From Candidatus Nanoarchaeia archaeon (lineage in GTDB: Archaea > Nanobdellota > Nanobdellia > Woesearchaeales > GW2011-AR4): a DNA stretch of 64,000 nucleotides. Location: positions 422 through 64,421 of the forward strand of contig DATDOM010000082.1 of assembly GCA_035293285.1 (NCBI GenBank), given 5' to 3'. The first letter of the stretch is position 1; the number at the start of each line of letters is the position of its first letter. Below, piece after piece: positions 37,018-53,023 of this stretch. A program made the position numbers and the translations under genes. A model generated the notes under the pieces. The model saw only the letters and a program-made list of their open reading frames with translations. It was not told the origin of the DNA and did no database searches.

Positions 37018-40000
37018 TTGGCTGACGACGGAGAAACTGAAAATCAAGAGGAGAATCCTGCAAGCGGAAGCTCCAGGTGGTCCAGATTTAAAGAGAAAGC
37101 AAGACAGGGCTACAAGAAGGGTAAAGAAAAGATAAGCCAGTCTGGACAGGGAGATGATTCTGGTGATGACAGCGGCGAGGCGCGCGGCAAGGGAACAATG
37201 CCAATCAATGTAACAAATATTGTTGAGCGCGCAAAGTCTGGAAATTTCGTCGGTTGGATAATTGTTGTTGCGCTTGTTTACATAGCTGCATATTACTGGT
37301 TTTTGCCGTTTAGGGTTTGGATCGGCATCTGGGGCTTTAAGCTTTTAGTCGGAATAATTTGGGTCTGCTTCATTTTATATGGGCTGTTTTCTGGTTTCTG
37401 GAACAAGGGTAAGGAAAATATTTCAATAACCAATTTTTTTGTCGGGCTTGTGCTGTTAGTATGGCTATTGGACATGATACCTGCAGACTTTCCGCTTTTT
37501 GGAAGCATTCTTGGCGGGCCCTATGCCGGTTTTGAGTTTGACTGGAAGAGTTTTTCATTTGGATTTTCAACAACGATACTGGCAGTAATAACATCTGGAA
37601 TAACATTTGCATTCTTGTATGTGAACATGATATTTGACATAATAAAAAAAGATGTCATAATGTTTGGGTTTGGGTTTGGGTTTATTGTATTGACAAACAA
37701 GCTTTTGGCAAATTTCATTCCAAGCTATTTGAGCGGCTCTTTTGTGCTCGTCTGGGGGTTTTGGATTTATTTCATTGTTACTGCCGTCCTTGTGGTGCTT
37801 GCAGTGTGGCTTGCAAAAAGATATGATGTGAAGTTAGGAGAAAAATCCGGTGATTTTTTCACTTATCTTCTTATGGCTTTTGTGTTCTCATTTTTTTGGA
37901 TAAACAACGGCTGGATTCACAGCACAAAAGCACTTTACCATGCGATATTCATACTTTGTTTTGGATTTTTTTACATCCAGCCGCATGAGAGGAAAAATCC
38001 TGTAGCATGGCACATTATTATCCCCGCTTTATTGATAATTGACTTTTATGGCTATGGACTTTTGTACTCGACAGATATCCTCTTTGTGCAGTTTATCCCC
38101 GTACTTGTGATTTTTGTCCTTGCTTACTGCTATTACCAGACCAAAAGTAAATATGCCCTGGTTTCTTTCATATTTCTTGTAACTGTGATACTTATCCTTA
38201 GCCTTGTGGCAGTCAACGCATACCAGACAGGCTCAATCCAGTTTCAGGCAAGAGGGGACGGAAAATCATTTTCAACTTTTCTCAATACGCTGACAAAGCA
38301 GACTACAAGCCTTCTCGAGGGGCAGCTTGAAACTGCAACAGGCGGATTATACAGAAGCCAGGTTGAAAAAAACCAGTATGAACCTTTGGGAGTCTACCTC
38401 ACGGACATACGGGCGTCCCAGCCAAGGTACAGGAGTGACGAGCCTGTTACAATCTGGGGCAAGATTAGTGCAAAAACACTGAGCGACCCAATAATAATAA
38501 ATTTCAACTGCTACAGGTTTGAGGGAAAAGACGAGAACAAACAGAAAATTCCAATAAAAGCAGAAGGGCTTTATCCAAACAAGCCTTTCAGTGTTTTTAC
38601 ATATGAGGAGAAAGACACCGAATGCAACTTTAACACCGAAGAAGACCAGGTTGAGCTAAAACCAGGCTCAAACGAAGTTTCATTGTCCGCAACCTATAAT
38701 TTTGACACAAGCGCATACCACAAAGTTTACTTCATTGACAAAGCAAGGCAGCGCTCAATGCTTGTTGAAGGGCTTGACCCATTAAAGGAGTTTGGGATAA
38801 CTGATAAAAACCCGGTTACCGTCTACACAAACGGCCCTGTTGAGCTTGCAGTAAGCATTTCAAACATTGTGACTGTTTCTTCCGAAGATGATTTGGCTCC
38901 GGTCATAGGAATACTCTTAAAAAACCGCGACAGGATAAGCGACAAGGCAGGAAGCCCGCTTGGACAGTGGGAGGGAAAGATAAAGGACATAAAAGAGCTT
39001 GTTTTGGTGCTTCCAAGGGGAGTTTCACTTAAAAAAGTGGAGAAAGACCAAAGATATGACTGCAAGCCTTCGCCTTTCAAGGATTACAGCTCACAAGACT
39101 GCAAAAACTCGTGCCAAACCTACGTGACTGAGCCATGCCATAAAATCTGCAACGAAAACGAGCAGTGCATTGAGCGTGACTGCAAGCCTTCAGAAAAAAG
39201 ATGTTTAGAGGAATGTGACGATTTGTTCAGGGTTGATTCTGCAGGCGGCGCAGAGCTCAAAGGATACCAGCTTGACATTGAAAGCATAAAATCGGAATTC
39301 AAATCAGATGACTTGAAAGATATAGATAAGTTTCGGACTTTTGGCTGCAGGCTTGAATTGGATGGCAAGGAGGTTTTGGATAACACGCCGATTACTACAA
39401 AATTCATAAGGTTAAAGGCAAGATACAATTACACTGTTGAGAAGGGTTTTAACATCAATGTTGATTCAATAAAAATAGATGAAACTGTAAACGGGGGACT
39501 GGTTTCTGATGACGGCTCGGGAAGATTTCCAGTAAGCAATTGTCAGTATAATGGACAGGAGTTTGCATCGAAAAAGTCCAACATAGACAAGATAATAAAC
39601 GGTCTTGCAGCTGCAGGAATAAATACAAAAAATGGAATTTCAGGCGTTCTTGGAAACTTCCGGCAGGAAAGTAACTTTGACCCGACAAAACAAGGTAAAT
39701 TTGGCGACTTGACTTGCTCTAATGACAGAATTGGACCACAGCAGGGGGCAATAGGAATTGCGCAGTGGTGCCGTGAACGCAGGACAAAACTAATCAGTAA
39801 ACACCCGAATTCATACCTGACAATTGATTCACAAGTGGATTATCTTGTATCTGAATTAACGGGGGACTACAAGGGGGCTGTTGCAAAAATGAATGCTGCA
39901 GGATCTCCGGAACAGGCTGCATTAATATGGCAGGGCAAAGCTTTTGAAAGTGCCACGCCAAGTCTAGCGGGGCCAAGAGATGAATATGCAAGGCAGGTTT

Positions 40001-40023
40001 ATAACGGTCTCGAGTGCACTTGA
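37018..40023 (+). CDS. Giant fusion protein: polytopic membrane domain, unknown ectodomain, Cys-rich linker and C-terminal phage-tail-lysozyme-like domain
   Basis: The ORF starts at TTG 37018 and the first ATG lies about 60 codons in. About 10 TM helices (residues about 75-400). The ectodomain shares landmarks with the three downstream paralogs. Cys-rich CKPSPF..CKNSCQTYVTEPCHKICNENEQCIERDCKPSEKRCLEEC. C-terminus GVLGNFRQESNFDP...GAIGIAQWCRERRTKL...QVDYLVSEL resembles Pfam Phage_tail_lysozyme (PF18013). Confidence 0.65.
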   Translation: MADDGETENQEENPASGSSRWSRFKEKARQGYKKGKEKISQSGQGDDSGDDSGEARGKGTMPINVTNIVERAKSGNFVGWIIVVALVYIAAYYWFLPFRVWIGIWGFKLLVGIIWVCFILYGLFSGFWNKGKENISITNFFVGLVLLVWLLDMIPADFPLFGSILGGPYAGFEFDWKSFSFGFSTTILAVITSGITFAFLYVNMIFDIIKKDVIMFGFGFGFIVLTNKLLANFIPSYLSGSFVLVWGFWIYFIVTAVLVVLAVWLAKRYDVKLGEKSGDFFTYLLMAFVFSFFWINNGWIHSTKALYHAIFILCFGFFYIQPHERKNPVAWHIIIPALLIIDFYGYGLLYSTDILFVQFIPVLVIFVLAYCYYQTKSKYALVSFIFLVTVILILSLVAVNAYQTGSIQFQARGDGKSFSTFLNTLTKQTTSLLEGQLETATGGLYRSQVEKNQYEPLGVYLTDIRASQPRYRSDEPVTIWGKISAKTLSDPIIINFNCYRFEGKDENKQKIPIKAEGLYPNKPFSVFTYEEKDTECNFNTEEDQVELKPGSNEVSLSATYNFDTSAYHKVYFIDKARQRSMLVEGLDPLKEFGITDKNPVTVYTNGPVELAVSISNIVTVSSEDDLAPVIGILLKNRDRISDKAGSPLGQWEGKIKDIKELVLVLPRGVSLKKVEKDQRYDCKPSPFKDYSSQDCKNSCQTYVTEPCHKICNENEQCIERDCKPSEKRCLEECDDLFRVDSAGGAELKGYQLDIESIKSEFKSDDLKDIDKFRTFGCRLELDGKEVLDNTPITTKFIRLKARYNYTVEKGFNINVDSIKIDETVNGGLVSDDGSGRFPVSNCQYNGQEFASKKSNIDKIINGLAAAGINTKNGISGVLGNFRQESNFDPTKQGKFGDLTCSNDRIGPQQGAIGIAQWCRERRTKLISKHPNSYLTIDSQVDYLVSELTGDYKGAVAKMNAAGSPEQAALIWQGKAFESATPSLAGPRDEYARQVYNGLECT

Positions 40024-41056: not shown

Positions 41057-41098
41057 GCTTAGCAAAGTTTATATAAATGAATAAGAAAAAAATAAAAA

Positions 41099-42151: not shown

Positions 42152-42210
42152 TTGGGATAAACAGAAAGTTTTATATACCGAATTTGAAATAAAATGTTGA
42201 AAGAGGTAAA

Positions 42211-43437: not shown

Positions 43438-45444
43438 TTAATTCTGAAGCTTTAATATCTGTGCGTTTGTCTCTCCAAGATTTACTTTTGTGTCTGAATT
43501 CAGGTCGGCAATTGGGTTTCCGCTGCTGTCTGAAGCCACAACAAAGAAATAGTAGACGTTCTCATTCAAATTACCCATAAACTTTATGATTATTTTTTCA
43601 TTCACCGGTGGAATTAATTCTGCCTCACTGTCCTCTCTTGATTTGTCTGTTGGCATTAAGTCGCTTATCGCGACATCGTTTAAGATGCCCTGAATTCTAT
43701 TTTGGTCAAGCGGCTTTGATTTTGAATCTGATTTATAATAAACCCTGTAACTGATCACATCAGAAACAACTGACCCATCTGCATTAACAGTTGCTTTGTT
43801 TATTAATGGTATTTCGATTTGTCCTGACTGGTTGGGGAGCTGCAAAGATGATATGCCTACCAGGTTGTCTGAGCTTGGAAATAAATCATCAGTTGAGGCA
43901 AAAGTCGCGTAGTTTTGCCCGCTTAGAATATATTTATTTCCTTCAATGCTCTTGTCATTGTCAAGCTCAATGTTTCCGTCGTTTGCTGCAGTGACTGCAA
44001 AATTGTATTCCTGCCCGTCATTGGGAATGCTTATTTTAATTAACATGCTTTTTTCATCAGGCTCTTCATTTTTTGAAAATCTAAGATTTTCAGCATAATG
44101 GAGTTTTGCTGTGTATAAGGGCACGTCAAATACGCTTGAGCCGATTTTGCGGTATCTGCACGGAGTTTTTGGAGAAGTGAATTCACAATTTGTGATGTCG
44201 ATTGAGTCAAGGGTTTCCTCAGCATCTGAAATGACTTTCACCCTGTTAATTGTCCCTTTTGAAACTTCTTTTTTTATGTCATCCATTTTCATATCAATAA
44301 AGCTTATTTCTTTTGGAGCGTAATATATTGCATAGCTTTTCGTAAGTGTGTCATCGCTTTGCCTCCATTTTAGTATTACAGATTTTTCTGACTTTAAGGA
44401 ATCAAAAACTTTTAAGGATTCAATCGGTTTTGGAGCAGGATTTGGAATTGTGACTGCAAATCTGTAAAAAATATTTCTCAGCTTGACTTGATTATCAGAT
44501 TCATCGAAAGCATAAACCTGCTTGTCGCTTTTATAACAATATGTTACGCCTTTCTTTAATGGAAGGTCTATTATTGTGTTTAATGAAGGTGACAGAAAGT
44601 TACCTTCTTCGCCTTTTGCTATGAACTTCAGCTGCGCTAGTTTCTGGTCCTCGCCGTCTAGTTTTGAAATTTTTGATGTCTTGTATACTATTATGCTTTC
44701 GCCGCTTAATGCAAGCTCAGCGTATTCAGGATATGCAATGTTTGGGAAGTTTTCAGACCTGAACTGGCTGATTTTCTGTTCGCCTTCTTTCCCAAGCTTG
44801 ATTCTCACGGAGTCGGTATATTTGCATACATTGCTTTTTGCCTGTAGGTTTTCCTGGCAGAAGACGTCTCTTGAAACATAGTCTGTGTAAAGAAGATTGC
44901 CTGTTTCGATGTAGCTAAGGGCCAAAGAGTCTAAAGGCTTTTCTGAATCTGCTATTGAAGCCTTTATTTGTCCATTTTCTGTTGTGAGGGTGATTTCATA
45001 GTTTTTGCCTACTTTGACGTCAATTGTCGAAAACCTGCAAACACCATTGTCCTGCTCTGTGCTTATGCACTCTGTTAACTTGTTTGAAAAATCATCAATT
45101 ATGGCCTTTGGCTCATTTTCTCCGGAATTTACGCATCCCCACTTTGCATCATTGGATTTTTCCATAAAACAAGAAAAAACGTTTTCAGATATTTTACAGG
45201 GCTCGATGACTTCTGACCTGAACTCGTCTTTTACTTTTTTGTATTCCTCCTCCATTTTATAGTCCATTTTTGCCCTGAATGAAGGGTTTATTGAGTATGA
45301 GCCTATGATTGGGTTAATTTCTTTTTCTTCGTCAACTGCAAATCCGGTTATTCCGGTTATTGGGCCGTGGCTGCTAAGAGCAACAACTGTTAAAAGTAAT
45401 AAAATCGGAATTCCAACAATCAAAAAGAATTTTTGCAGTTCCAT
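43438..45444 (-). CDS. Large N-terminally anchored extracellular protein, unknown function (possible FN3/Ig-like repeats); last gene of the minus-strand operon
   Basis: MELQKFFLIVGIPILLLLTVVAL anchor. A beta-rich 640-aa ectodomain with an FN3-like stretch KPIESLKVFDSLKSEKSVILKWRQ...YAIYYAP. The start overlaps the upstream stop. Confidence 0.55.
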   Translation of the reverse strand: MELQKFFLIVGIPILLLLTVVALSSHGPITGITGFAVDEEKEINPIIGSYSINPSFRAKMDYKMEEEYKKVKDEFRSEVIEPCKISENVFSCFMEKSNDAKWGCVNSGENEPKAIIDDFSNKLTECISTEQDNGVCRFSTIDVKVGKNYEITLTTENGQIKASIADSEKPLDSLALSYIETGNLLYTDYVSRDVFCQENLQAKSNVCKYTDSVRIKLGKEGEQKISQFRSENFPNIAYPEYAELALSGESIIVYKTSKISKLDGEDQKLAQLKFIAKGEEGNFLSPSLNTIIDLPLKKGVTYCYKSDKQVYAFDESDNQVKLRNIFYRFAVTIPNPAPKPIESLKVFDSLKSEKSVILKWRQSDDTLTKSYAIYYAPKEISFIDMKMDDIKKEVSKGTINRVKVISDAEETLDSIDITNCEFTSPKTPCRYRKIGSSVFDVPLYTAKLHYAENLRFSKNEEPDEKSMLIKISIPNDGQEYNFAVTAANDGNIELDNDKSIEGNKYILSGQNYATFASTDDLFPSSDNLVGISSLQLPNQSGQIEIPLINKATVNADGSVVSDVISYRVYYKSDSKSKPLDQNRIQGILNDVAISDLMPTDKSREDSEAELIPPVNEKIIIKFMGNLNENVYYFFVVASDSSGNPIADLNSDTKVNLGETNAQILKLQN

Positions 45445-46655
45445 TATGGCAATGACCTCGGCCTTGTGCCAGTCTGCTTTTCAATTTCAGAAGCTTTTAC
45501 TGCCCTTTTTGTGCTGCAGCACTCAAAATGCCACGGCTCTGCCTGATACCTTACCCAGCCTGCCTTATACATTATGTCTTCAAGAGTCATCCAGTCTTTT
45601 TGTGTCATTGGCCTTCCTGAAATCCTTATGTCAACTGCATTTCCTGAAAGATGAGGGCATCCGAGAGCGCCGTTTGTCGGGTCGCAGACATATTTTCTCC
45701 TCATTTTTGGGTCAGGATAAATTCTCGCCCATTTTCCATTCCACAAAGCCTTTTGCATCCTTATGTCCCTGTAAGTTGAAGTGAGCTGAAGAGAAACTCC
45801 GTAATCCTTTTTTGCAATTGACTGTGCTTTTGCAATTTTTTCGACTGCATCTTCCTTTAAGAGGCAGCGCTGGCCTTTTTGGCACATTTCGCTAAAACTT
45901 ACCCTCATAATGTCTTTTCCTTCCCCAATATTGACAGACCCTATTTTATTGATGTCAACAAGCACTACGCTTTTCGACTGGTCGATTTTTCCTGCCTCGG
46001 TGCCGCTCACCACCTCCTCTCCGTTGTCATCAAAAACCACTTTGTCAACTTTGTTTAGCTGCTTTAGGCTGTCAAGGAACAACAGCTCCCTGGCATCAGC
46101 CTCGTCATAATCCTCAAAAATGTTGAATTTCATTTTGCTTATTGCGCTTGCAGCTATCTCGAGATTTCCCTTCACGTTAAAATAATAATTATCCAGAAAG
46201 AAGCTGTATGGAGATGAAGAAAGGTATTTGCCGAGCTCATCGTTGAAATAGAATTCAATGTTTGAGTATGGCATTGTCTCGTTAAAGCATTCGGTTTCCT
46301 TGTACACTGCCCCTGTTTTTTTTATTGAAAACCAGACATTGGCATCGTCAATTTTCCCGCAGGAGTTGACTGAAACCTCATCTTCTCCTGACTCGATTGA
46401 TTGCAGCATTCCGCCGTTTTTTGCCATATCATAAGAAGCCTGCTGGATTGCAAAGCTGGCCGATTCGTCAACATACAGGAGTGCAGCTTCTGATTTTAGG
46501 TGTGTTTGAATCAGATTAAACTGTCTTTTTCCAAGAGTTTCTTTCCCGAAAGGAGCTTCTTTATCAAGAAGCACAATATACAGGTAAATCAAAGCTATGA
46601 GGCAAAAAATAACCACAAGCGGCAAAAAATAAAACGAGCTTTTTCTGTTTTTCAT
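45444..46655 (-). CDS. N-terminally anchored peptidase M15 (VanY / LAS-family D-Ala-D-Ala carboxypeptidase or endopeptidase-like)
   Basis: MKNRKSSFYFLPLVVIFCLIALIYLYIV anchor. C-terminal LQLTSTYRDIRMQ, CPHLSGNAVDI and AGWVRYQAEPWHFE match the SxxR..Q / HxxGxAxD / ExWH zinc-ligand pattern of M15/VanY. Confidence 0.7.
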   Translation of the reverse strand: MKNRKSSFYFLPLVVIFCLIALIYLYIVLLDKEAPFGKETLGKRQFNLIQTHLKSEAALLYVDESASFAIQQASYDMAKNGGMLQSIESGEDEVSVNSCGKIDDANVWFSIKKTGAVYKETECFNETMPYSNIEFYFNDELGKYLSSSPYSFFLDNYYFNVKGNLEIAASAISKMKFNIFEDYDEADARELLFLDSLKQLNKVDKVVFDDNGEEVVSGTEAGKIDQSKSVVLVDINKIGSVNIGEGKDIMRVSFSEMCQKGQRCLLKEDAVEKIAKAQSIAKKDYGVSLQLTSTYRDIRMQKALWNGKWARIYPDPKMRRKYVCDPTNGALGCPHLSGNAVDIRISGRPMTQKDWMTLEDIMYKAGWVRYQAEPWHFECCSTKRAVKASEIEKQTGTRPRSLP

Positions 46656-46682
46656 TTTAAGGTTAAAGGATCATATCCTGGA

Positions 46683-47195
46683 TCAGATTTTTTGGGTTGT
46701 CCCGAGTTTTACTTCTATAAGCCCGTTATATGATGGGATTACAACAAGCTGGCTTGGGCACGGGGCATTTGCCTGGCAGTCATCACTGTCCGAATACTTG
46801 TCCCATTTGTCATATTCCCCCTCATATTTTTCCCTACTTATGCAAACCATGCTGCAGTAGCTTGAAAATGAAAATGAGACGGAGTCTCCAAGATATTTTC
46901 CAAGGTTATTTTTTATCCAATCTTTTATTGAAGGGTCTATTCTTGAAAGGGCTATTGCCTGGGCTATGTCAATTTGAGCGCCGTCTATTGTTACAGGGGT
47001 CTTGAGAAAATTCATCAGGTCAACTTTTTCCTGCACTTTTACCGACGCCCCGTTTATGTCGTAAGTGAATTTTCCGGTAGAGATTTTTATTAGAAAATAA
47101 AATATTACAATAATAAGTGCAAAGAAAAGAATGGAGAACAGGTCTGCCAATGCCATTCCTTTTTTACCTGTTTGGAAGAATTGTCTCGATTTCAA
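46683..47195 (-). CDS. Prepilin-like signal protein, unknown function
   Basis: QTGKKG-MALADLFSILFFALIIVIFYFLI. A 32-nt overlap with the upstream ORF, or an alternative start at 47156. Confidence 0.5.
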   Translation of the reverse strand: MKSRQFFQTGKKGMALADLFSILFFALIIVIFYFLIKISTGKFTYDINGASVKVQEKVDLMNFLKTPVTIDGAQIDIAQAIALSRIDPSIKDWIKNNLGKYLGDSVSFSFSSYCSMVCISREKYEGEYDKWDKYSDSDDCQANAPCPSQLVVIPSYNGLIEVKLGTTQKI

Positions 47196-47688
47196 GTGTG
47201 CCTCCTTTCAGTTTTTCCCCGTCTTTTATAAGTACATAATAATAGTGCCTTAGTTTTTGGGCAGAGCCTTTTCCGGAAAGTTTTGCCTCGACAAGGACTT
47301 TTTTCTCATAATAAAGCTCTTTATTGTAGTATGCCTCGTATTTTTTGTCAGAGTCTGATTCATATAATGTCATTTTTGCAGAAGACTCTGAATTTATCTT
47401 TCCGTAAAAAATCGAATCCAAAAGGTTTTTGTCAAGCTCGCTTGACTGGAATTTCTGCAAATCGACAGTTGCTGCATAAATTCTTCCTGTATCAGGATCA
47501 ACATAGCTTATTTTATCAGAAAATAGAATCCTGTAGGCTGCAAGGTCTGCTTCAAGGTCAAAAATATCTATGTTCCTAATGATGAATGTCCTTGAGAGCA
47601 GCACAACTGAGAGAAACATGCAGACAACCACCATAAGCCTTACTATGTCCACAACTGCATTGAACTGGGATTTTTTATGGATTTTCAT
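47164..47688 (-). CDS. Prepilin-like signal protein, unknown function
   Basis: MKIHKKSQ-FNAVVDIVRLMVVVCMFLSVVLL. Size is 174 aa. Confidence 0.5.
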   Translation of the reverse strand: MKIHKKSQFNAVVDIVRLMVVVCMFLSVVLLSRTFIIRNIDIFDLEADLAAYRILFSDKISYVDPDTGRIYAATVDLQKFQSSELDKNLLDSIFYGKINSESSAKMTLYESDSDKKYEAYYNKELYYEKKVLVEAKLSGKGSAQKLRHYYYVLIKDGEKLKGGTLEIETILPNR

Positions 47689-47714
47689 TTTGTTTCTTAA
47701 TATTTTTCAATCAA

Positions 47715-48752
47715 CTATTTTCCGGAGCACCAGGCCCAAACAGATTCTGCCCAGGACTTGTAATTTGAAGGATGGCCGTCTTTTGAACGCGGCTCTATTT
47801 TAAGCTGAGAGGAGTCATAATACAAGACTGATGGCGGAATGTTTCGGGATATTATTCCTGATATTACCGAAGTGTCGTATCCTGGCCAGGTTGGCGGCCC
47901 TATCCAGTAAATTACTGGCCTGCTTCCGATTTTCTGTATAAGTGCCCTGGTATCTTCTGCAACTGCCTGCTCGTTTTTTTTCCTGATTCCGGAGGTTTCA
48001 TCATTTACCCCCAAAGAAATGAACACTATGTCCGGATTGAATTTTAATGCGTTTGTCAATATTGAACTTTCATCCTTTGCCCACTGGCCAATCCTTTTGC
48101 CGCTTATTGCATTGTTTGAGAACGTGCCGCTTTGGGCAGAAACTTTTGAGCTTATGTGCGGCCCGAGCCCCTGGCCAAGCGAATCTCCTATCATCAAAAC
48201 TTTTGCTCCCTGAATATTAGAACATCCAGTTGTTTGAGTGTTATCCTGCTTTTGGCCAGGAGATTCTCCTGCTTTTGGCTGGCCGCGGATTGGCGCACTA
48301 ATTATTGTTTGTGGATCTTTGATGACTAAATTGCCCTGCCCTTTAGATACTATGAGATAATTTGCCCCAGACACTGAATAAGTTTCTCTTTTCTGGGAAT
48401 TTTTTCCATAAGGATATATTTTAGGTGTTCCTTCGGTTCCAACCCTGGCAACAGGCTTATCATCAGTCTCGCTTAACTGCCCGAGCTGAAAGCTGAATTT
48501 TGGAAAATCAAGCTTTTCAAGCAGGTATTTGTATTCCAGGTCGCCTGGAATAGCATAGGCAGAATTTGAAAACATTGCAATATCCCTGCTCAGGAATAGT
48601 TTTTCGAATTCCGTACTTCTCTCTATAGAGCTTACATAAGAGAGCAGAAGAAAAAGAACAAAGGCAGCGATTCCTATTTTGGTTATGTGCTCAAGAACCT
48701 GCCTTATGGAAATCTGGCCTGATTTATTGGCTTCAAAAAACCTCTTTTTCAT
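47715..48752 (-). CDS. Prepilin-like signal protein with a C-terminal SGNH/GDSL hydrolase domain
   Basis: KSGQ-ISIRQVLEHITKIGIAAFVLFLLL. SGNH blocks VLMIGDSLGQGLG (I), ISLGVNDE (III) and SKDGHPS (V, with one-residue shorter D..H spacing). Confidence 0.55.
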   Translation of the reverse strand: MKKRFFEANKSGQISIRQVLEHITKIGIAAFVLFLLLSYVSSIERSTEFEKLFLSRDIAMFSNSAYAIPGDLEYKYLLEKLDFPKFSFQLGQLSETDDKPVARVGTEGTPKIYPYGKNSQKRETYSVSGANYLIVSKGQGNLVIKDPQTIISAPIRGQPKAGESPGQKQDNTQTTGCSNIQGAKVLMIGDSLGQGLGPHISSKVSAQSGTFSNNAISGKRIGQWAKDESSILTNALKFNPDIVFISLGVNDETSGIRKKNEQAVAEDTRALIQKIGSRPVIYWIGPPTWPGYDTSVISGIISRNIPPSVLYYDSSQLKIEPRSKDGHPSNYKSWAESVWAWCSGK

Positions 48753-48847: not shown

Positions 48848-49657
48848 TCAGGAAGGGGTAGTATTTACGTAATTGCGTGCAGACATTGGGGTTTCAATAC
48901 GTTGGTTTCTTGAAATAACATCTGGATCTTTCATATCTCCAAATCCTATATAATAAATGTCATTCTTGTCTTTGAATTTTTCGATGTAAATGCGCCTGTT
49001 TGACCACTCCAGTTCCAGGTCGCATTGGCCGTAAAGTGTTACAAAATAATTTTGGCGTGAGGTTTCGTATGGCAGTTTCCAGTCAGTCTTGCTTCCATAA
49101 AAGTGGCCGCTCTTCCCCAAAGCCAGTGATAAGAACACTATCTTTTCAGCAAATTTCTTGCACTTGACCGGAGCTGCCATTGGCTCATGCTTATCAAAAT
49201 CATAAATGCCGCCTGCGCCTGACCCAACTGCATGATAATTATTGTACAAGCACAAGCATGAAAACTTTTCGCATGCCTTTGGCCTTGATTTGTCTATAGG
49301 CTCGGGCTTTTCTCCTTCAATAGTGCAATAACTGAGCATTTGACTGTTATCCTGATAATTGAATCCTACGAGTATGTAGTCATCCGGCAATTCGTATATC
49401 ATTGTGTCTTTAAGGACTGCAACATTGCTTGTTTCTGAGCCTCTAGGGTCGCGCATCATGTCAGTGATTTTTTTGTTAAGCTCATCAAGATTGTTGACTG
49501 CTGCATCGTATTCCTGGTTGCTTGTGAAAAGGTTTGAAAGCCTGTAGCCTATGTAAATTAGGAAAAGCACTACAATTACGGCCAAAAAAACCTCAAGAAT
49601 CTGGATCAGGGAAATTTCCGTTGAAGATGTGCCCTTTTTATTTTTTTTTAATTTCAT
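48848..49657 (-). CDS. Prepilin-like signal protein, unknown function
   Basis: Start taken at MKLKKNKKG-TSSTEISLIQILEVFLAVIVVLFLIY. ORF track start 49684 would overlap the upstream gene. Confidence 0.5.
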   Translation of the reverse strand: MKLKKNKKGTSSTEISLIQILEVFLAVIVVLFLIYIGYRLSNLFTSNQEYDAAVNNLDELNKKITDMMRDPRGSETSNVAVLKDTMIYELPDDYILVGFNYQDNSQMLSYCTIEGEKPEPIDKSRPKACEKFSCLCLYNNYHAVGSGAGGIYDFDKHEPMAAPVKCKKFAEKIVFLSLALGKSGHFYGSKTDWKLPYETSRQNYFVTLYGQCDLELEWSNRRIYIEKFKDKNDIYYIGFGDMKDPDVISRNQRIETPMSARNYVNTTPS

Positions 49658-49674
49658 ATTTTTATAGAAAATAA

Positions 49675-50070
49675 TCAGGTACAACGATTATCGCTTGTTT
49701 TTTTGCCGTTGCATTCAAAGACCGTATCATCGTTCGAATCTTTGTCGCATGCGTCCGGCATCCCGTCCAGGTCCTTGTCATTGATATTGGCGCTGTCAGT
49801 GCCTTTTATGCATATATCACATGCATCAGGCCTTCCATCCTTGTCTGCATCCGTAAAGTCTATGCCGCGCTCCATCGCATCATTTCCTTTATTGACACAT
49901 GCTTTGTCCCTTATCTTTAATTCGGACGGGCCTATGACATTTGATGCCGCTGTCGAGCCCTTAAAAAGAAAGTGATAAGCAAAAAATAATACGGCAAGCC
50001 CTACCAAAATCCCCATTACCATTTTTAACCCTGAGCTTGTCTGGCTTTTTTTGTGTATTTTTGGTTTCAT
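49675..50070 (-). CDS. Anchored protein with thrombospondin type-3-like Ca-binding repeats
   Basis: Start at MKPKIHKKSQTSSGLKMVMGILVGLAVLFFAY, chosen because ATG 50070 forms an ATGA overlap with the upstream stop. DADKDGRPDACDIC and DKDLDGMPDACDKD repeats. Confidence 0.55.
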   Translation of the reverse strand: MKPKIHKKSQTSSGLKMVMGILVGLAVLFFAYHFLFKGSTAASNVIGPSELKIRDKACVNKGNDAMERGIDFTDADKDGRPDACDICIKGTDSANINDKDLDGMPDACDKDSNDDTVFECNGKKTSDNRCT

Positions 50071-50306
50071 TTTGAGCAGCATACCGGAGTTTCTTTTGGG
50101 CATGTATAGCTTGGTGCCGGAGTGCTGCACTGCCCTTTTACGGTGCATTTGAACCCCTTAGATTCGCAACCAAAAGCATCCTTGTTAAAAGTTGATGAGC
50201 CTTTGGATATAAAAATAAAGCTTACTACAAGTATTGCAAGAAGTATTGCAGCGGCAATTATCATGTTTAGAGCAGCTGCCTCTGCCCTTTTTTTCTTTAT
50301 GTTCAT
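50067..50306 (-). CDS. Small pilin-like protein with a Cys-rich C-terminus
   Basis: MNIKKKRAEAA-ALNMIIAAAILLAILVVSFIFI is homologous to the N-terminus of the pilin at 53485. 6 Cys residues in the last 45 aa. Confidence 0.55.
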   Translation of the reverse strand: MNIKKKRAEAAALNMIIAAAILLAILVVSFIFISKGSSTFNKDAFGCESKGFKCTVKGQCSTPAPSYTCPKETPVCCSK

Positions 50307-50346
50307 GGTAGTTTTATTGTAAAGGTCATTTTTATAGTTTTGTTTT

Positions 50347-51237
50347 TCATGTTTTCCCGCATATGGGCCATTTTTGTGCCCAGTTTTTATACTGGTCTTC
50401 AGTTAGGCAGCCGAATTTTTCAAAGCACCTTGAGTGGGAGAGTTCTGACTCACAAACCTGATATGAAACTCTTCCAACAGTATCTCCAGGAAGCCTTGTA
50501 TCTTCCACGACGCATCGGCAAGGATAATTAAGTATTACACATGACCCGGGTCCGTCTGTATTGCATACAGGAAGCTTTTCAATCAGGAAATTATTTGAGA
50601 TTGAGCAGGCCGCGAGAGCTTCTGTGTAAAGCTTGTTTTTGTTTGAGTCTTTTGGCACTGAGAAGCCTGGATAATAAAAGTGAAGGTCATCTGACTTCTT
50701 GCATCCTGCATTATGATTGTAGCACCTATAGCCTGTGTCGCAGTATTGTCCGTTGTCCTTGCCTTCATAGCAAATGCACGGCCCGTTTTTAACGTTGCAG
50801 GAGAACTTATCTGTCTGGCATTCGCTTGAAGCTTGTCCAATATTCTTTTTCAAGTCTGCGCAGTTTTCCAGGTTGTGCTGTACTGGAAGAGTGTTGCTGC
50901 ATCCAATAAACCCATCATAGCAATAGGGTTTTTCAGGGCTGCACTGGTCGGGCCTTTGTTTTAGTTCTTTTTCCTTTGCTGAAAAGCAAAGGCAGGGAAA
51001 TGAAGAAGCTTTACAGCTTGAAGCATCAACATCACACCTGTGTTTTTGATAATCTACAAGAACATTGTTCCATAACAAGTCAGGGTCTGCTGATTCAACA
51101 ACCTCGTTTTTTGTGATTCCAAGCGCATCCTTGATTAGTTTAGAGATGTTTGAGGAAAAAAACATGCCAAAAACTATGAAAAAAAGAACGATTGCTATGA
51201 CAATCATTTCTGAAAAACCCATTGATTTTTTGTTCAT
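50347..51237 (-). CDS. Prepilin-like signal protein, extremely Cys-rich ectodomain
   Basis: Start at MNKKSMG-FSEMIVIAIVLFFIVFGMFF (TAAAATG junction with the upstream gene). About 30 Cys residues in 296 aa. Confidence 0.55.
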   Translation of the reverse strand: MNKKSMGFSEMIVIAIVLFFIVFGMFFSSNISKLIKDALGITKNEVVESADPDLLWNNVLVDYQKHRCDVDASSCKASSFPCLCFSAKEKELKQRPDQCSPEKPYCYDGFIGCSNTLPVQHNLENCADLKKNIGQASSECQTDKFSCNVKNGPCICYEGKDNGQYCDTGYRCYNHNAGCKKSDDLHFYYPGFSVPKDSNKNKLYTEALAACSISNNFLIEKLPVCNTDGPGSCVILNYPCRCVVEDTRLPGDTVGRVSYQVCESELSHSRCFEKFGCLTEDQYKNWAQKWPICGKT

Positions 51238-51238
51238 T

Positions 51239-51382
51239 TTATCCAAAAATTGAGCCAAGCGAGCTGTCCAGTGATTTTGAGATTTCAGGAGAAGTGAGGA
51301 TAACTATAATCAGCACTACCATCGCAATAACCAGCAGTGCTACAAACTCCCATGAAATCGCAATCGCTTTTTTGTGTTTCAT
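51239..51382 (-). CDS. 47-aa pilin-like micro-protein
   Basis: Below the ORF-track cutoff. MKHKKA-IAISWEFVALLVIAMVVLIIVILTSPEISKSLDSSLGSIFG. Its stop is followed immediately by the next ATG (GGATAAAATGAAC). Confidence 0.5.
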   Translation of the reverse strand: MKHKKAIAISWEFVALLVIAMVVLIIVILTSPEISKSLDSSLGSIFG

Positions 51383-51413
51383 ATTATTGATGTTTAGAGG
51401 TTTGTATAAATAA

Positions 51414-52232
51414 TTATTGCTGCAGCACCGGCAAATCCTTGCAGTTTAGTGCAGTCAGCTGCTCGGGATTATAAGGAATAAAGTTTATCAGGGCTATGTG
51501 CTGAAAAGGATCTTTTGTGAAATAAGTTTCAAGTCCTGCCCAAATTGCACCTCCGGCAACTAGGATTGTTCCTATGACAGGGTGCTGTGCTATCAGCATG
51601 ACTCCGACAATGACCGAGCCTGCTCCGGGCGCCGCATTTCTGGCCTTTTTCAAGTATTCATCAAGGTATTTTTTGCCTTTTATGTAAGTGAAGACTACAG
51701 CATACTTGTCATCTTTTGAGCCGTCAATGGCATCTGAAATTTTCTTGTTGTTGAATTCTTCAATGAATCCTGTGTCATCAGTCTTTTCAGTTGTGAGGTA
51801 TTTCAAGTATGAAACCGACTTGCTTGAGTCTGACTTGCTTGCAAGGAATTTTGAAAAGTCGTTGATTTTCACGTCCTTGCCAAAATCAACCCTATAACAA
51901 ACGGCGCAGTATACATTATCATCGGTAAAAAGCTCGAGCTTTCCCCTTCCAAAATTGTCCCAGCAGTCCCGCATCAAATCCGCGATTTTCTTTTTTGCAG
52001 CTTCCTCATTTTTGTCATTTATCTTCAATTTAACCGTAGGGCATTTCACGTCGCTTGAAAAGTCTGCATACCTTAATTTGAGCTTTGCGTGTGTTTCAAC
52101 ACTTGCCTTGCAGGTTTGTTTTGCTGTTGCATGATCATACAAGTCTTTTAATTTTCCTTCTGTTGAAAAAAACATGAATAGTGCCAAGAGGACTATTATT
52201 GTAGAAACAAAGGCTATTGTTGTTATCCTCAT
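51414..52232 (-). CDS. Anchored extracellular protein, unknown family (paralog of 52234-53022)
   Basis: MRITTIAFVSTIIVLLALFMFF anchor. Shared pattern C..CP..(D/L)CW..C..C with the upstream gene. C-terminal hydrophobic segment GSVIVGVMLIAQHPVIGTILVAGGAIWAG. Confidence 0.5.
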   Translation of the reverse strand: MRITTIAFVSTIIVLLALFMFFSTEGKLKDLYDHATAKQTCKASVETHAKLKLRYADFSSDVKCPTVKLKINDKNEEAAKKKIADLMRDCWDNFGRGKLELFTDDNVYCAVCYRVDFGKDVKINDFSKFLASKSDSSKSVSYLKYLTTEKTDDTGFIEEFNNKKISDAIDGSKDDKYAVVFTYIKGKKYLDEYLKKARNAAPGAGSVIVGVMLIAQHPVIGTILVAGGAIWAGLETYFTKDPFQHIALINFIPYNPEQLTALNCKDLPVLQQ

Positions 52233-52233
52233 T

Positions 52234-53022
52234 TTAGTTTAATATTATGTCGCATATTTTGGCGTCTACATTAGCTTCTTTTGATAAAGTAACTGTGTAA
52301 AATGAATTCTTATCTCCAAGGTCTTCAGCAGCCCATGTTGGCTTAAACCCAATAAAAAACATAGAATACTTTTCATAGTTTTTTAGGATATCAGGAACCA
52401 AATAATCACCTCCACTATCAGAAAATTGACCTACTTTTAGGTAATTTTCTTTAATTTTGCTTTTTGGGGCTACTGCCAGATAGTCAAAATATGTCTGAGG
52501 GTTTTTTGGTATTTTATTTTCTTTTAGGTAATTTATAAATTCCTTTATTTCATGAATATTATCAGAATTTACATCAAATTCCATAGACGAGCAGATTAGG
52601 CATATATTATTGTCTCCAAATGCAGTGCCGGGATTCTCAAAGACCAAACCTTTTCCTTCAAGCAGCTTATACCAGCAAAGGCGCAGTTCCTCTGCAAACA
52701 CTTTTTTTACTGAATCCTCATAATTTTTCCCAATAGGGTATTCCTTTGCCTTTTTGCCGTTTATCTCAACTTTATTATCGTATATTTTTATAACTCTTCT
52801 TGGGCAGTCCAAAGGAATTGTCGTGCTGCCGGTAGGGTTCAATGCTCCAAGAGTTTTTAGCTCTATGCTTTGCGCAAGCGCGCTTGTCCTGCATACTTCA
52901 ATATCACCTTTCTTTTTTGACTGGGTTACAAAACTGTAAGTGAATGCTATTAGTATTCCTGCAACTACAAGAAAGATTATGAGGATGACCAAAGTTTCGT
53001 CAAGTATTGCTTTTTTGTCCAT
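52234..53022 (-). CDS. Prepilin-like signal protein, unknown family (paralog of 51414-52232)
   Basis: Start at MDKKA-ILDETLVILIIFLVVAGILIAF (TAAAATG junction). CRTS..DCPRR..LCWYKL..NICLICS pattern. Confidence 0.5.
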   Translation of the reverse strand: MDKKAILDETLVILIIFLVVAGILIAFTYSFVTQSKKKGDIEVCRTSALAQSIELKTLGALNPTGSTTIPLDCPRRVIKIYDNKVEINGKKAKEYPIGKNYEDSVKKVFAEELRLCWYKLLEGKGLVFENPGTAFGDNNICLICSSMEFDVNSDNIHEIKEFINYLKENKIPKNPQTYFDYLAVAPKSKIKENYLKVGQFSDSGGDYLVPDILKNYEKYSMFFIGFKPTWAAEDLGDKNSFYTVTLSKEANVDAKICDIILN

Positions 53023-53023
53023 T

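What the first reader, a model, noticed from the sequence alone, without database searches (positions are those of the whole stretch)
45444..48752. M15 (VanY-like) peptidase and SGNH esterase, each fused to pilin-like N-termini
Seen in sequence:
- 45444-46655 carries STYRDIRMQ / CPHLSGNAVDI / EPWHFE, the H-D-H zinc ligands of LAS peptidases, after a single N-terminal helix and a roughly 270-aa unknown region.
- 47715-48752 carries GDS(L), GxND and a D-x-H block after KSGQ-ISIRQVLE.
- Two small pilin-like genes sit between them.

Established knowledge: M15 enzymes cut D-Ala-D-Ala or L-Ala-D-Glu bonds in murein stem peptides. SGNH enzymes include peptidoglycan O-acetyl esterases.

Inference: with the lysozyme-like domain at 37018-40023, the locus would cover the glycan, the peptide and the O-acetyl decorations of a bacterial wall. 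Enzymes bearing class III signals recall the Sulfolobus bindosome concept, but with lytic cargo.
Basis: partly seen in the sequence, partly recalled or inferred. Interest (0 to 1): 0.65.

Follow-up and report, generated by a model that had tools for sequence, protein, structure and literature searches.

The report
Wall-cutting enzymes on archaeal pilin-like carriers
A small archaeon of the Woesearchaeota type carries an operon of pilin-like surface proteins, two of which end in enzymes of the kind that trim bacterial cell walls, which suggests these archaea attach to or feed on bacteria.

Summary
45444-46655(-) encodes a 403-aa protein whose C-terminal 150 residues are an intact VanY/LdcB-type (M15B) zinc peptidase. 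47715-48752(-) encodes a 345-aa protein whose C-terminal 165 residues are an intact SGNH hydrolase.

Both genes lie in a tightly packed minus-strand operon (53485 to 43438). Ten of its 12 genes start with a class III (prepilin-like) N-terminus, against 5 of 48 genes elsewhere in the window. The operon is syntenic in more than 20 Woesearchaeota/Nanoarchaeia genomes.

The M15 protein is a conserved core member of that operon. The SGNH domain is an add-on seen only in this window, grafted through a flexible linker onto a conserved 145-aa operon component that stands alone in about 50 relatives.

Murein is the likely substrate, by association. The same M15 module sits next to an SLT lytic transglycosylase in a 2401-aa Woesearchaeal protein. 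Relatives of this SGNH subfamily are fused to SLT, SpoIID, CHAP and M15 domains.

Three things are not shown: processing by a prepilin peptidase, incorporation into a filament, and the actual substrates. No pilus ATPase, platform protein or A24 peptidase was found in the window or in the flanks of related loci.

Verdict: a new variant of known kinds (modular pilins, class III cargo, DPANN murein hydrolases).

The parts
45444..46655 (-). 403-aa M15 protein. It has a class III-like N-terminus (MKNRKS|SFYFLPLVVIF...), a conserved N-terminal domain of unknown fold (residues 33-250) and a C-terminal VanY/LdcB-type zinc peptidase.
   Evidence: Pfam PF01427 and PF02557. 26 full-length homologues. Alignment A1 with invariant residues. 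AF2 model with mean pLDDT 80. Foldseek top matches VanY-B, LdcB, VanX, VanXY and Ply500.
45447..45893 (-). M15 catalytic module, residues 255-403. It begins with the conserved leader C258..C264. The predicted zinc ligands are H335 (45651-45653), D342 (45630-45632) and H376 (45528-45530). E373 is the predicted catalytic base and R296 lies in the S-x-Y-R motif.
   Evidence: R296, H335, D342, H376, E378, C379 and C380 are invariant in A1. A profile of A1 aligns SxYR, H..D and E..WH onto LdcB 4ox3/4mph and VanX 1r44. The module is 52% identical to the C-terminal module of the L026 giant SLT protein.
46683..47195 (-). 170-aa pilin-like operon component (..GKKG|MALADLFSILFFALIIV..).
   Evidence: Class III-like motif. 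Orthologues at the same operon position in 10 loci.
47164..47688 (-). 174-aa pilin-like operon component (MKIHKKS|QFNAVVDIVRLMVVV..).
   Evidence: Class III-like motif. Orthologues in 11 loci, up to 53% identical.
47715..48752 (-). 345-aa modular protein made of a class III-like N-terminus, a conserved carrier module, a linker and an SGNH hydrolase.
   Evidence: ORF. Pfam PF13472, PF04311 and PF00657. No full-length homologue found.
48321..48752 (-). Carrier module, residues 1-144 (..NKSG|QISIRQVLEH.., TM helix, then a conserved globular part: FEK.[FY]L[AS]RD...Y..PG).
   Evidence: It aligns with stand-alone 141-199-aa proteins at the same operon position in 10 loci. A profile search gives 39 proteins of 76-240 aa (nearly all 141-179 aa), none with a Pfam domain.
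48213..48320 (-). Linker rich in P, G, Q and T, about residues 145-180 (..KDPQTIISAPIRGQPKAGESPGQKQDNTQTTGCSNIQG).
   Evidence: Read from the translation. It has no counterpart in the carrier family alignment.
47718..48212 (-). SGNH hydrolase domain, residues 181-345. Block I is GDS with S191 (motif at 48174-48188). Block II is G218. Block III is GVND with N250 (47997-48011). Block V is D325-G-H327 (47766-47783).
   Evidence: 621 relatives. GDS, N and H are invariant in A2. AF2 model with mean pLDDT 91.4. Foldseek matches EstL5, CJ0610C, TesA, PatB and acetylxylan esterases. Profile against PDB: TesA 3e-10, PatB 4e-8.
53210..53485 (-). First gene of the operon as held in the window. It is a 91-aa candidate major pilin (MQKKA|QGISINTIIIAAIGLAVLVVLF..) with a small Cys-rich head.
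   Evidence: ORF. 52-58% identical to the tandem small pilin genes of L001, L004, L008, L010 and L011.
48848..53049 (-). Six further operon genes: 271, 272, 303 (24 Cys), 79 (6 Cys), 157 and 278 aa. All but the 272-aa protein have a [KR][GAS] motif followed by a hydrophobic stretch.
   Evidence: ORFs and N-termini. Synteny with L001, L002, L004, L008, L010 and L011.
43438..45444 (-). 668-aa last gene. Its start overlaps the M15 stop codon by one base. It has an N-terminal signal-anchor and its orthologues carry an fn3 domain. It lies directly downstream of the M15 gene in 21 loci.
   Evidence: fn3 in the orthologues L001 11162-12946 and L015 5340-7148.
37018..40023 (+). Convergent neighbour. 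A 1001-aa protein with about 9 TM helices and a C-terminal phage-tail-lysozyme domain (residues 855-996). Its membership of the same system is inferred from proximity only.
   Evidence: PF18013, E 5e-20. TM prediction. No counterpart near the M15 gene in the related loci.

Best explanation
The two genes belong to a lineage-typical Woesearchaeota operon (53485 to 43438, minus strand). Nearly every product of that operon starts like an archaeal prepilin.

Shown:
1. The M15 protein ends in an intact VanY/LdcB-type zinc peptidase, and the SGNH protein ends in an intact SGNH hydrolase.
2. Both have a short basic leader ending in G, A or S, followed by a hydrophobic helix. This pattern is conserved across both protein families and shared by the neighbouring genes.
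3. The M15 protein is a core operon member. It is always followed by an fn3 surface protein.
4. The SGNH domain is a window-specific graft, through a flexible linker, onto a conserved 145-aa operon component.
5. The same M15 module is fused to an SLT lytic transglycosylase in another Woesearchaeal protein. The SGNH subfamily is repeatedly fused to murein hydrolase domains.

Inferred:
1. The proteins are exported. A prepilin peptidase encoded elsewhere clips them after the K-[GAS] motif.
2. Their hydrophobic N-terminal helix holds them in the membrane at the base of, or as minor or tip subunits within, a type IV pilus-like surface structure built from the 91-aa pilin.
3. There they act on the wall of a bacterium in contact with the archaeon. 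The SGNH module would remove O-acetyl groups, which block lytic transglycosylases and lysozymes. The M15 module would trim or cut D-Ala-containing stem peptides. Glycan-cleaving proteins such as 37018-40023 would open the sacculus.
4. The result would be local thinning of the host or prey wall for attachment, penetration or feeding.
For: Enzyme identity:
- Pfam hits above the curated cut-offs.
- M15 family alignment with invariant R296, H335, D342 and H376, and Glu three residues before H376 in every member.
- The A1 profile aligns these motifs onto LdcB and VanX.
- M15 AF2 model at pLDDT 80; Foldseek probability 1.0 to VanY-B, LdcB, VanX, VanXY and Ply500, and to phage M15B endolysins.
- SGNH alignment with invariant GDS, Asn and His.
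- SGNH AF2 model at pLDDT 91; Foldseek matches to SGNH esterases and PatB at TM about 0.69.

Pilin-like context:
- 10 of 12 operon genes against 5 of 48 other genes have [KR][GAS] followed by a hydrophobic stretch, p = 2e-6. Two clear tandem pilin genes elsewhere in the window also use K-S|Q.
- All 22 M15 homologues with complete N-termini carry the motif, as do 38 of 39 carrier homologues.
- A 91-aa pilin-like gene heads the operon.
- Genes abut or overlap, as in an operon.

Conservation:
- Gene order is shared with more than 20 Woesearchaeota/Nanoarchaeia loci.

Modularity:
- Carrier homologues are stand-alone, nearly all 141-179 aa (one of 240 aa), without Pfam domains.

Murein as target:
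- L026 encodes fn3+Big_13+SLT+M15. Its M15 module is 52% identical, including the DFTG..LC.KG..C.LT leader and the HFECC signature.
- SGNH relatives are fused to SLT/Phage_lysozyme2 (P0078, P0112), SpoIID (P0091, P0137), CHAP (P0128) and M15 (P0112). No other catalytic partner domain was found.
- Giant SLT proteins of Woesearchaeota and Pacearchaeota, and archaeal murein hydrolases that kill bacteria, are documented (PMC8204110, PMC9723730, PMC12352652).
- Established knowledge: archaea other than pseudomurein-bearing methanogens have no such wall polymer, and O-acetylation of MurNAc C6 blocks lytic transglycosylases.
Against: - No A24 prepilin peptidase, VirB11/FlaI-type ATPase or FlaJ/TadC platform protein is in the 64-kb window or within 10 kb of the M15 gene in the loci examined.
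- The first half of the conserved operon is missing from the window: the giant TSP3 protein and four further genes.
- In the M15 model the TM helix (7-32) is separated from the next helix (41-80) by a break, so it is not the single long alpha-1 helix of a pilin. The N-terminal domain has no structural match.
- The small pilin profile finds no solved pilin.
- The -2 residue of the SGNH protein is Ser rather than Lys or Arg.
- The nearest solved M15 relatives are carboxypeptidases, which trim stem peptides but do not lyse walls.
- The SGNH block V reads D-x-H instead of D-x-x-H, and that loop has lower model confidence (block mean pLDDT 68).
- The nearest solved SGNH relatives include thioesterases and O-acetyltransferases, so the direction of the reaction and the substrate are open.
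- The link to the + strand lysozyme gene rests on proximity only.
- All functional statements come from sequence and models. Nothing was assayed.
Confidence: 0.55

Rival explanations
1. The proteins are ordinary membrane-anchored ectoenzymes. The N-terminal helices are uncleaved signal-anchors following the positive-inside rule, not prepilin signals. The enzymes sit on the archaeal membrane and still act on extracellular substrates, but no filament or prepilin peptidase is involved.
For: No prepilin peptidase, ATPase or platform gene was found in the window or in the flanks of related loci. The M15 model shows a TM helix followed by a break rather than a continuous alpha-1 helix. No solved pilin matches the small proteins. 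Ser at -1 (M15) and Ser at -2 (SGNH) are not the commonest class III residues.
Against: The [KR][GAS] residue directly before the hydrophobic stretch is conserved in all complete M15 homologues and in 38 of 39 carriers. It is shared by 10 of 12 operon genes, including a 91-aa protein that looks like a pilin and little else. Two unmistakable tandem pilin genes in the same window also use K-S|Q. Archaeal pilin genes are often encoded away from their assembly genes (bioRxiv 10.64898/2026.04.22.720090).
Confidence: 0.25
2. The enzymes scavenge rather than attack. They process free murein fragments or necromass in the environment, releasing D-Ala, peptides or acetate for a metabolically limited archaeon. 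They do not breach a living host's wall.
For: The nearest M15 relatives (LdcB, VanY) are trimming carboxypeptidases, not lytic endopeptidases. An SGNH esterase would release acetate, and an AMP-forming acetyl-CoA synthetase lies at 32029-33978. Class III signals on nutrient-binding proteins are the bindosome precedent.
Against: The M15 gene is fixed inside an operon of structural pilin-like genes next to an fn3 surface protein, not next to transporters. The same M15 module sits on a giant adhesin-like SLT protein. No ABC transporter or peptide or amino-acid uptake gene lies in or next to the operon.
Confidence: 0.15
3. The enzymes have an endogenous role. The M15 peptidase (and the SGNH esterase) mature, trim or recycle the archaeon's own surface components, such as the operon's pilin-like proteins or a glycan coat. 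This would resemble the surface peptidases linked to archaeal type IV pili by Makarova et al. 2016.
For: The M15 gene is a strictly conserved operon member, as an assembly factor would be. PMC4858521 reports transglutaminase-like peptidases linked to archaeal pilus loci and suggests pilin processing. SGNH enzymes act on many acetylated glycans.
Against: All characterised M15B enzymes need a D-amino-acid C-terminus, which ribosomal proteins lack (established knowledge). The module is fused to SLT, a murein-specific fold. Every catalytic partner domain found on the SGNH subfamily is a murein hydrolase. The literature searches found no report of a murein or pseudomurein wall in Woesearchaeota, and pseudomurein has no D-amino acids.
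Confidence: 0.1
4. The region is a remnant of a mobile element or provirus, and the M15 and SGNH proteins are endolysin-like cargo.
For: M15B and SGNH domains are common in phage endolysins and tail fibres. Bro-N, PD-(D/E)XK and LAGLIDADG genes lie some kb downstream in L001 and L004.
Against: The operon has the same gene order, next to RPA, RadA and a GpsA-like gene, in many species-level genomes. There are no capsid, terminase, integrase or tRNA-flank signatures in the operon. GC content is close to the window average: 0.40 for the operon and 0.45 for the enzyme domains, against 0.39.
Confidence: 0.02

Closest known systems
LdcB / VanY / VanXY (MEROPS M15B, LAS fold) peptidoglycan stem-peptide carboxypeptidases
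   Same: Same fold and the same catalytic constellation: S-x-Y-R, H-x6-D and E-x-x-H.
   Different: Sequence similarity is very low (profile E about 1e-5). The family has its own signatures (C-P-H, W-H-F-E-C-C, a Cys-bracketed leader). The module follows a 250-aa conserved domain and a class III-like N-terminus. It is found only in Woesearchaeota/Nanoarchaeia, which make no murein. Bond specificity is unknown.
SGNH/GDSL hydrolases of the DUF459 / PatB / AT3-linked SGNH group, with Ape-type O-acetyl-peptidoglycan esterases as the functional analogue
   Same: SGNH fold with block I Ser, block II Gly, block III Asn and block V His. The subfamily co-occurs with murein hydrolase domains.
   Different: Block V is D-x-H rather than D-x-x-H. 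The domain is attached to an archaeal pilin-like carrier. Esterase versus transferase activity, and the acetylated substrate, are untested. No direct comparison with Ape1 was made.
Modular type IV pilins of bacteria (Streptococcus sanguinis PilB/PilC; PMC8179133)
   Same: A functional module is grafted by a short linker onto a small module that carries a class III signal, and the gene lies among pilin genes. The SGNH protein fits this design closely.
   Different: The organism is an archaeon. The cargo are murein-active enzymes rather than adhesins or lectins. The carrier has not been shown to have a pilin fold. Filament incorporation is untested.
Sulfolobales bindosome and class III-signal substrate-binding proteins (bioRxiv 10.64898/2026.04.22.720090)
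   Same: Non-pilin functional proteins carry class III signal peptides and depend on type IV filament machinery encoded elsewhere.
   Different: The cargo are hydrolases rather than solute-binding proteins. The genes lie in a pilin operon rather than next to ABC transporters. No Bas-like assembly genes were identified.
Giant extracellular lytic-transglycosylase proteins of Woesearchaeota/Pacearchaeota (fam00969, PMC8204110; PMC9723730)
   Same: Same lineage and the same presumed target, bacterial murein. One such protein (L026) carries the same M15 module.
   Different: The proteins here are small, carry a class III signal, are operon-embedded and carry peptidase or esterase activities rather than glycan-cleaving ones.
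Machine-associated peptidoglycan hydrolases (VirB1, PrgK/TraG, FlgJ; reviewed in PMC12102498)
   Same: A dedicated wall-remodelling enzyme is encoded inside the operon of a surface or trans-envelope machine.
   Different: Those enzymes open the producer's own wall. Here the producer has no murein, so the wall must be foreign.

Membership tests
Peptidase M15 (LAS zinc peptidases, VanY/LdcB type) | Zinc ligands H-x6-D plus a distal H in E-x-x-H | tested here: met
   H335-x6-D342 and E373-P-W-H376. H335, D342 and H376 are invariant, and the Glu three residues before the His is present in all 26 homologues. These residues align to the corresponding LdcB and VanX motifs.
Peptidase M15 (LAS zinc peptidases, VanY/LdcB type) | S-x-Y-R substrate-carboxylate-binding motif | tested here: met
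   S293-T-Y-R296 with R296 invariant. It aligns to SGYRS of LdcB.
Peptidase M15 (LAS zinc peptidases, VanY/LdcB type) | LAS / Hedgehog-DD-peptidase fold | tested here: met
   In the AF2 model the M15 domain has pLDDT 85-97. Foldseek probability is 1.0 to 5hnm, 4mph, 1r44, 4mur and 2vo9, and to phage M15B endolysins.
Peptidase M15 (LAS zinc peptidases, VanY/LdcB type) | Zinc-dependent hydrolysis of D-Ala-containing peptide bonds | not testable with these tools
   This needs an enzyme assay.
SGNH/GDSL hydrolase superfamily | Block I GDS with the nucleophile Ser | tested here: met
   G189-D-S191, invariant in A2.
SGNH/GDSL hydrolase superfamily | Block II Gly and block III Asn (oxyanion hole) | tested here: met
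   G218 in AISGKR. G248-V-N250-D, with the Asn invariant.
SGNH/GDSL hydrolase superfamily | Block V D-x-x-H | tested here: inconclusive
   His327 is invariant, but the window has D325-G-H327 (D-x-H). The closest relatives P0029 and P0032 read D-G-D-G-H, and most of the family reads D-G-x-H. The loop has lower model confidence.
SGNH/GDSL hydrolase superfamily | Flavodoxin-like alpha/beta/alpha SGNH fold | tested here: met
   AF2 pLDDT 91.4 and pTM 0.88. 68 PDB matches at E <= 1e-3, all of the top 50 listed being SGNH enzymes or scaffolds designed from one.
O-acetyl-peptidoglycan esterase (Ape-type function) | Removes the O-acetyl group from MurNAc C6 of murein | not testable with these tools
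   The only support is by association, through fusions of subfamily members with SLT, SpoIID, CHAP and M15. PatB, an O-acetyltransferase, is an equally close structural neighbour.
Archaeal type IV pilin / class III signal peptide protein | Short basic leader ending in G/A(/S), directly followed by a hydrophobic stretch of about 20 residues | tested here: met
   M15: MKNRKS|SFYFLPLVVIFCLIALIYLYIVLL. SGNH..NKSG|QISIRQVLEHITKIGIAAFVLFLLL. The motif is conserved in both families and enriched in the operon. This is a motif match only. Ser at -1 (M15) and Ser at -2 (SGNH) are less usual.
Archaeal type IV pilin / class III signal peptide protein | Cleavage by an A24 prepilin peptidase (PibD/FlaK/EppA) | not testable with these tools
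   No A24 peptidase gene is in the window. The rest of the genome is not available.
Archaeal type IV pilin / class III signal peptide protein | Pilin 'lollipop' architecture: one long N-terminal helix packed on a beta-sheet head | tested here: inconclusive
   The M15 model has H7-32, a break, H41-80 and then beta strands. The N-terminal domain has no PDB match. The carrier and the small pilins were not modelled. The small-pilin profile finds no solved pilin.
Archaeal type IV filament (TFF) locus | Assembly ATPase and membrane platform protein encoded with the pilins | tested here: not met
   None is in the window, nor within 10 kb of the M15 gene in L001, L002 and L004 (precomputed Pfam hits). 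In 12 further loci, a Walker A motif screen of ORFs of at least 250 aa and Pfam scans of selected ORFs found none either. The only Walker A proteins nearby are RadA and a proteasome-type AAA ATPase. The locus is therefore not filed as a complete TFF system.
Sulfolobales bindosome | Class III-signal solute-binding proteins linked to ABC transporters and BasEF | tested here: not met
   The cargo are hydrolases. No ABC transporter or solute-binding domain lies in or next to the operon. The resemblance is only in the principle of class III signals on functional cargo.

The most novel reading that the evidence does not exclude
Woesearchaeota build a lineage-specific type IV pilus-like organelle whose minor or tip subunits carry murein-editing enzymes. 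The M15 peptidase is always present, with optional add-ons such as the SGNH esterase. This would be a 'lytic pilus' that drills through the wall of a bacterial host. It would imply that the unknown hosts of Woesearchaeales are bacteria. It would also parallel VirB2-type pilin-SGNH fusion proteins, of a kind typical of Patescibacteria, that were found among the SGNH relatives. That would be a convergent solution in the two ultra-small episymbiont radiations, possibly with domain exchange between them.
Probability: 0.3. Interest if true: 0.85.

Novelty: new variant of a known kind. Interest (0 to 1): 0.6.

Why it matters
Woesearchaeota are among the most abundant uncultured archaea, and neither their hosts nor their attachment mechanism is known. 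Previous work pointed only to giant lytic-transglycosylase proteins.

This finding adds a conserved operon that ties a murein peptidase to a set of pilin-like surface proteins. In this genome the operon also carries an esterase of a subfamily that travels with murein hydrolases.

If the reading is right, it gives:
- a concrete, testable molecular model for contact between an archaeon and a bacterium;
- a genomic marker for predicting bacterial hosts, namely the M15 operon with its HFECC signature;
- the first archaeal example of the modular-pilin principle with enzymatic, wall-directed cargo;
- small, disulfide-rich, secreted murein enzymes that could be expressed and assayed directly.

Tried and rejected
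- Single-sequence phmmer of both proteins against PDB gave nothing significant. Profiles were needed.
- The word-indexed search with the full SGNH protein returned only the protein itself. This reflects limited sensitivity. The exhaustive search with the domain alone found 621 relatives, and a profile of the carrier found 39.
- A combined MAFFT alignment of carriers plus SGNH relatives (A4) misaligned the two sets and was dropped. Only the SGNH domain was modelled, so the carrier's fold is unknown.
- A search for enzyme cargo on other large pilin-like operon proteins in ten related loci found no Pfam domain.
- A search for pilus ATPase, platform protein or peptidase in the window and the loci found none.
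- A cluster look-up to find the taxonomic origin of the SGNH relatives gave no organism names. Their assignment to Patescibacteria rests only on the PF18895 domain and on PMC12102498.
- The small-pilin profile against PDB gave no significant hit.
- A bacterial promoter and terminator scan gave counts no higher than in shuffled sequence, and it does not apply to archaea.
- Foreign origin of the SGNH domain was considered from composition. GC is 0.45 against 0.39, too small a shift to conclude anything.
- A provirus reading was rejected because of the conserved chromosomal synteny.
- Pseudomurein as substrate was rejected. That polymer has only L-amino acids (established knowledge), and the search turned up no report of it in this lineage.

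Full report
**1. What is in the sequence**

The window is archaeal. It encodes Pelota (34216-35280), aIF5B (26754-28538), Trm1 and a wyosine radical-SAM enzyme.

The two ORFs of the finding exist as described. The 403-aa product of 45444-46655(-) contains STYRD (residues 293-297), CPHLSGNAVD (333-342) and EPWHFECC (373-380). The 345-aa product of 47715-48752(-) contains KSGQIS (10-15), GDSLG (189-193), GVNDE (248-252) and KDGHPS (324-329).

Pfam places the first in Peptidase_M15 (34.6 bits, cut-off 27) and VanY. It places the second in Lipase_GDSL_2 (35.1 bits, cut-off 32.9), DUF459 and Lipase_GDSL. The neighbour at 37018-40023 has a Phage_lysozyme2 domain (E 5e-20).

**2. The M15 protein**

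A database search found 26 full-length homologues at 30-39% identity (BLASTP), the one organism name given being Woesearchaeota. A scan of species-representative genomes found 23 loci. All are labelled Woesearchaeota, Nanoarchaeia or Nanoarchaeota, or carry what I take to be a placeholder label on 'binchicken' MAGs.

In the alignment, R296, H335, D342, H376, E378, C379 and C380 are invariant, and a Glu sits three residues before H376 in every member. A profile of the family aligns S-x-Y-R, H..D and E..W-H onto the same motifs of the L,D-carboxypeptidase LdcB (4ox3, 4mph) and of VanX.

An AlphaFold model has mean pLDDT 80, with 85-97 in the catalytic domain. It matches VanY-B, LdcB, VanX, VanXY, the Ply500 endolysin and phage M15B endolysins with Foldseek probability 1.0.

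Residues 33-250 form a conserved alpha/beta domain with two invariant cysteines and no structural match.

**3. The SGNH protein**

The whole protein has no detectable full-length homologue. Its C-terminal 176 residues have 621 relatives in an exhaustive search, mostly small secreted proteins of 190-240 aa.

GDS, the block III Asn and the block V His are invariant, and the block II Gly is present. The Asp lies two residues, not three, before the His. This is also the arrangement in the closest relatives, P0029 and P0032.

The domain model has pLDDT 91.4. It matches SGNH esterases, TesA, CJ0610C/DUF459, the peptidoglycan O-acetyltransferase PatB (TM 0.69) and acetylxylan esterases. The fold and the catalytic set are secure. 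The substrate is not.

**4. The surroundings: one conserved operon**

Both genes lie in a close-packed minus-strand series running from 53485 to 43438, in which neighbouring genes abut or overlap. For example, the M15 stop codon overlaps the start of the next gene by one base.

The series begins with a 91-aa protein, MQKKA|QGISINTIIIAAIGLAVLVVLF.., with a small Cys-rich head. It is 52-58% identical to small, in some loci tandem, genes in related loci. The series ends with a 668-aa protein whose orthologues carry an fn3 domain.

The gene order is the same in L001, L002, L004, L008, L010, L011 and others: 271, 272, (303), 79, 157, 278, carrier, 174, 170, M15, fn3 protein. In those loci the operon is followed by RPA, RadA and a GpsA-like gene.

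In those loci the operon also has an upstream half that the window lacks. It consists of a giant TSP3-repeat protein, a highly conserved 333-aa protein starting KKA|FEIQFNWIF, and three smaller genes.

**5. Pilin-like N-termini**

Nearly every operon product starts with a short basic leader ending in G, A or S, directly followed by a hydrophobic stretch. With a fixed rule, 10 of 12 operon genes qualify against 5 of 48 other genes in the window (p = 2e-6). Three of those five outside genes also look like pilins, including a tandem pair at 17611-18565 that uses K-S|Q.

All 22 M15 homologues with complete N-termini have K-K-[GAS] at about position 5. In the carrier family, 38 of 39 members have [KR][GAS], typically [KR][KR]G|[IM][ST].E.FF.

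It does not show cleavage or assembly. No A24 peptidase, assembly ATPase or platform protein was found in the window or within 10 kb of the gene in related loci. The M15 model has a break after the TM helix, and the small-pilin profile finds no solved pilin.

**6. Old member versus recent graft**

The M15 protein is a fixed operon member. The SGNH protein is different. Its first 144 residues align with stand-alone proteins of 141-199 aa at the same operon position in ten loci. A profile search for this carrier returned 39 proteins, nearly all of 141-179 aa (one of 240 aa), none with any Pfam domain.

In the window the carrier is followed by a linker rich in P, G, Q and T and then by the SGNH domain. 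This matches the 'modular pilin' design described for bacteria (PMC8179133). It also recalls the class III-signal cargo principle of the bindosome (bioRxiv 10.64898/2026.04.22.720090), here with an enzyme as cargo. Other large pilin-like proteins in related operons showed no recognisable cargo.

**7. What the enzymes act on**

Two independent associations point to murein.

- *M15 module.* In locus L026, a 2401-aa protein with fn3, Big_13 and SLT lytic-transglycosylase domains ends in the same M15 module. That module is 52% identical and includes the DFTG..LC.KG..C.LT leader and the HFECC signature. At the domain level it is as close to the window's module as the operon orthologues are.
- *SGNH subfamily.* Among the 18 multi-domain proteins (over 300 aa) in the best 150 SGNH relatives, every additional catalytic domain found is a murein hydrolase: SLT/Phage_lysozyme2 (P0078, P0112), SpoIID (P0091, P0137), CHAP (P0128) and M15 (P0112). 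P0112 unites SGNH, M15 and SLT in one chain. Five others carry a VirB2-type T4SS_pilin domain, a domain widespread in Patescibacteria (PMC12102498).

It is established knowledge that O-acetylation of MurNAc C6 blocks lytic transglycosylases. An esterase partner for glycan-cleaving enzymes is therefore mechanistically sensible.

Giant SLT proteins of Woesearchaeota and Pacearchaeota, and bactericidal archaeal murein hydrolases, are already in the literature (PMC8204110, PMC9723730, PMC12352652). A literature search combining Woesearchaeota, carboxypeptidase and pili found no paper.

**8. Caveats on function**

- The nearest solved M15 relatives trim stem peptides rather than lyse walls.
- PatB, an acetyltransferase, is as close to the SGNH domain as any esterase.
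- The + strand lysozyme gene is linked only by proximity. It has no counterpart near the M15 gene in 25 related loci.

A scavenging role, or a plain signal-anchored ectoenzyme, remain live alternatives. An endogenous pilin-processing role is less likely, because M15B enzymes need D-amino-acid termini. A provirus origin is very unlikely, given the conserved chromosomal synteny and the near-native GC content.

**9. Verdict**

The enzyme identities, the class III-like N-termini and a murein-directed role are backed by evidence. Processing, filament incorporation and substrates remain inferences.

I rate it a new variant of known kinds: a conserved Woesearchaeal pilin-like operon with a built-in M15 murein peptidase and, in this genome, a newly grafted SGNH module.

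Noticed in passing
window 35736-43233 (+): A plus-strand gene cluster converges on the operon. It holds a 392-aa protein with a textbook KKG|Q pilin-like N-terminus, a 1001-aa protein with about 9 TM helices and a C-terminal phage-tail-lysozyme domain, and three paralogous 340-358-aa Cys-rich proteins with lipobox-like N-termini. None has a counterpart near the M15 gene in related loci.
   Followed up: partly
window 17611-18063 and 18122-18565 (+): Two tandem 150-aa genes have near-identical classical archaeal pilin N-termini (N[NR]KS|QAA[ML]EF..YGWAILVVLVAIGALAYFG). They show that this organism uses Ser at the -1 position of class III signals.
   Followed up: partly
L026 2760-9965: A 2401-aa Woesearchaeal surface protein carries fn3, Big_13 and SLT lytic-transglycosylase domains and, at its C-terminus, the same M15 module as the window. 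This links the giant lytic-transglycosylase proteins described for Woesearchaeota and Pacearchaeota to the operon's peptidase.
   Followed up: yes
proteins P0112, P0078, P0091, P0137, P0128, P0037, P0055, P0077, P0104, P0152 (relatives of the SGNH domain): Metagenomic relatives of the SGNH domain are fused to SLT/phage lysozyme, SpoIID, CHAP or M15 domains. P0112 has SGNH, M15 and SLT in one chain. Five relatives are fused to a VirB2-type T4SS_pilin domain of the kind common in Patescibacteria. The window's domain shares an N-terminal Cys and a C-terminal W.WC[GS]G motif with P0029, P0032 and P0037.
   Followed up: partly
window 55327-56628 (+): A 433-aa protein has a RelA/SpoT nucleotidyltransferase domain (PF04607, E 5e-12), which is unusual in an archaeon. 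It lies just beyond the operon.
   Followed up: no
window 4474-12306 and 23184-24779: A bacterial-type acyl-CoA and lipid gene set: CoA-transferase III, two thiolase-like proteins, DUF362, a FabA-like dehydratase and a biotin carboxylase, plus methylmalonyl-CoA mutase. This fits the reported bacterial fatty-acid genes of Woesearchaeota (PMC8204110), but it is rich for a DPANN genome.
   Followed up: no
window 138-2066 (-): A 642-aa protein has four thrombospondin type 3 repeats and an F5/8 type C (discoidin) domain. It recalls the giant TSP3-repeat protein that heads the conserved operon in related loci, although here it lies 50 kb away.
   Followed up: no
window 32029-33978 (-): An AMP-forming acetyl-CoA synthetase lies 10 kb from the operon. 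It could use acetate released by an O-acetyl esterase, but the proximity may be coincidental.
   Followed up: no
window 61058-63269 (-): An AAA ATPase of the MoxR / Mg-chelatase type is paired with a vWA-domain protein.
   Followed up: no
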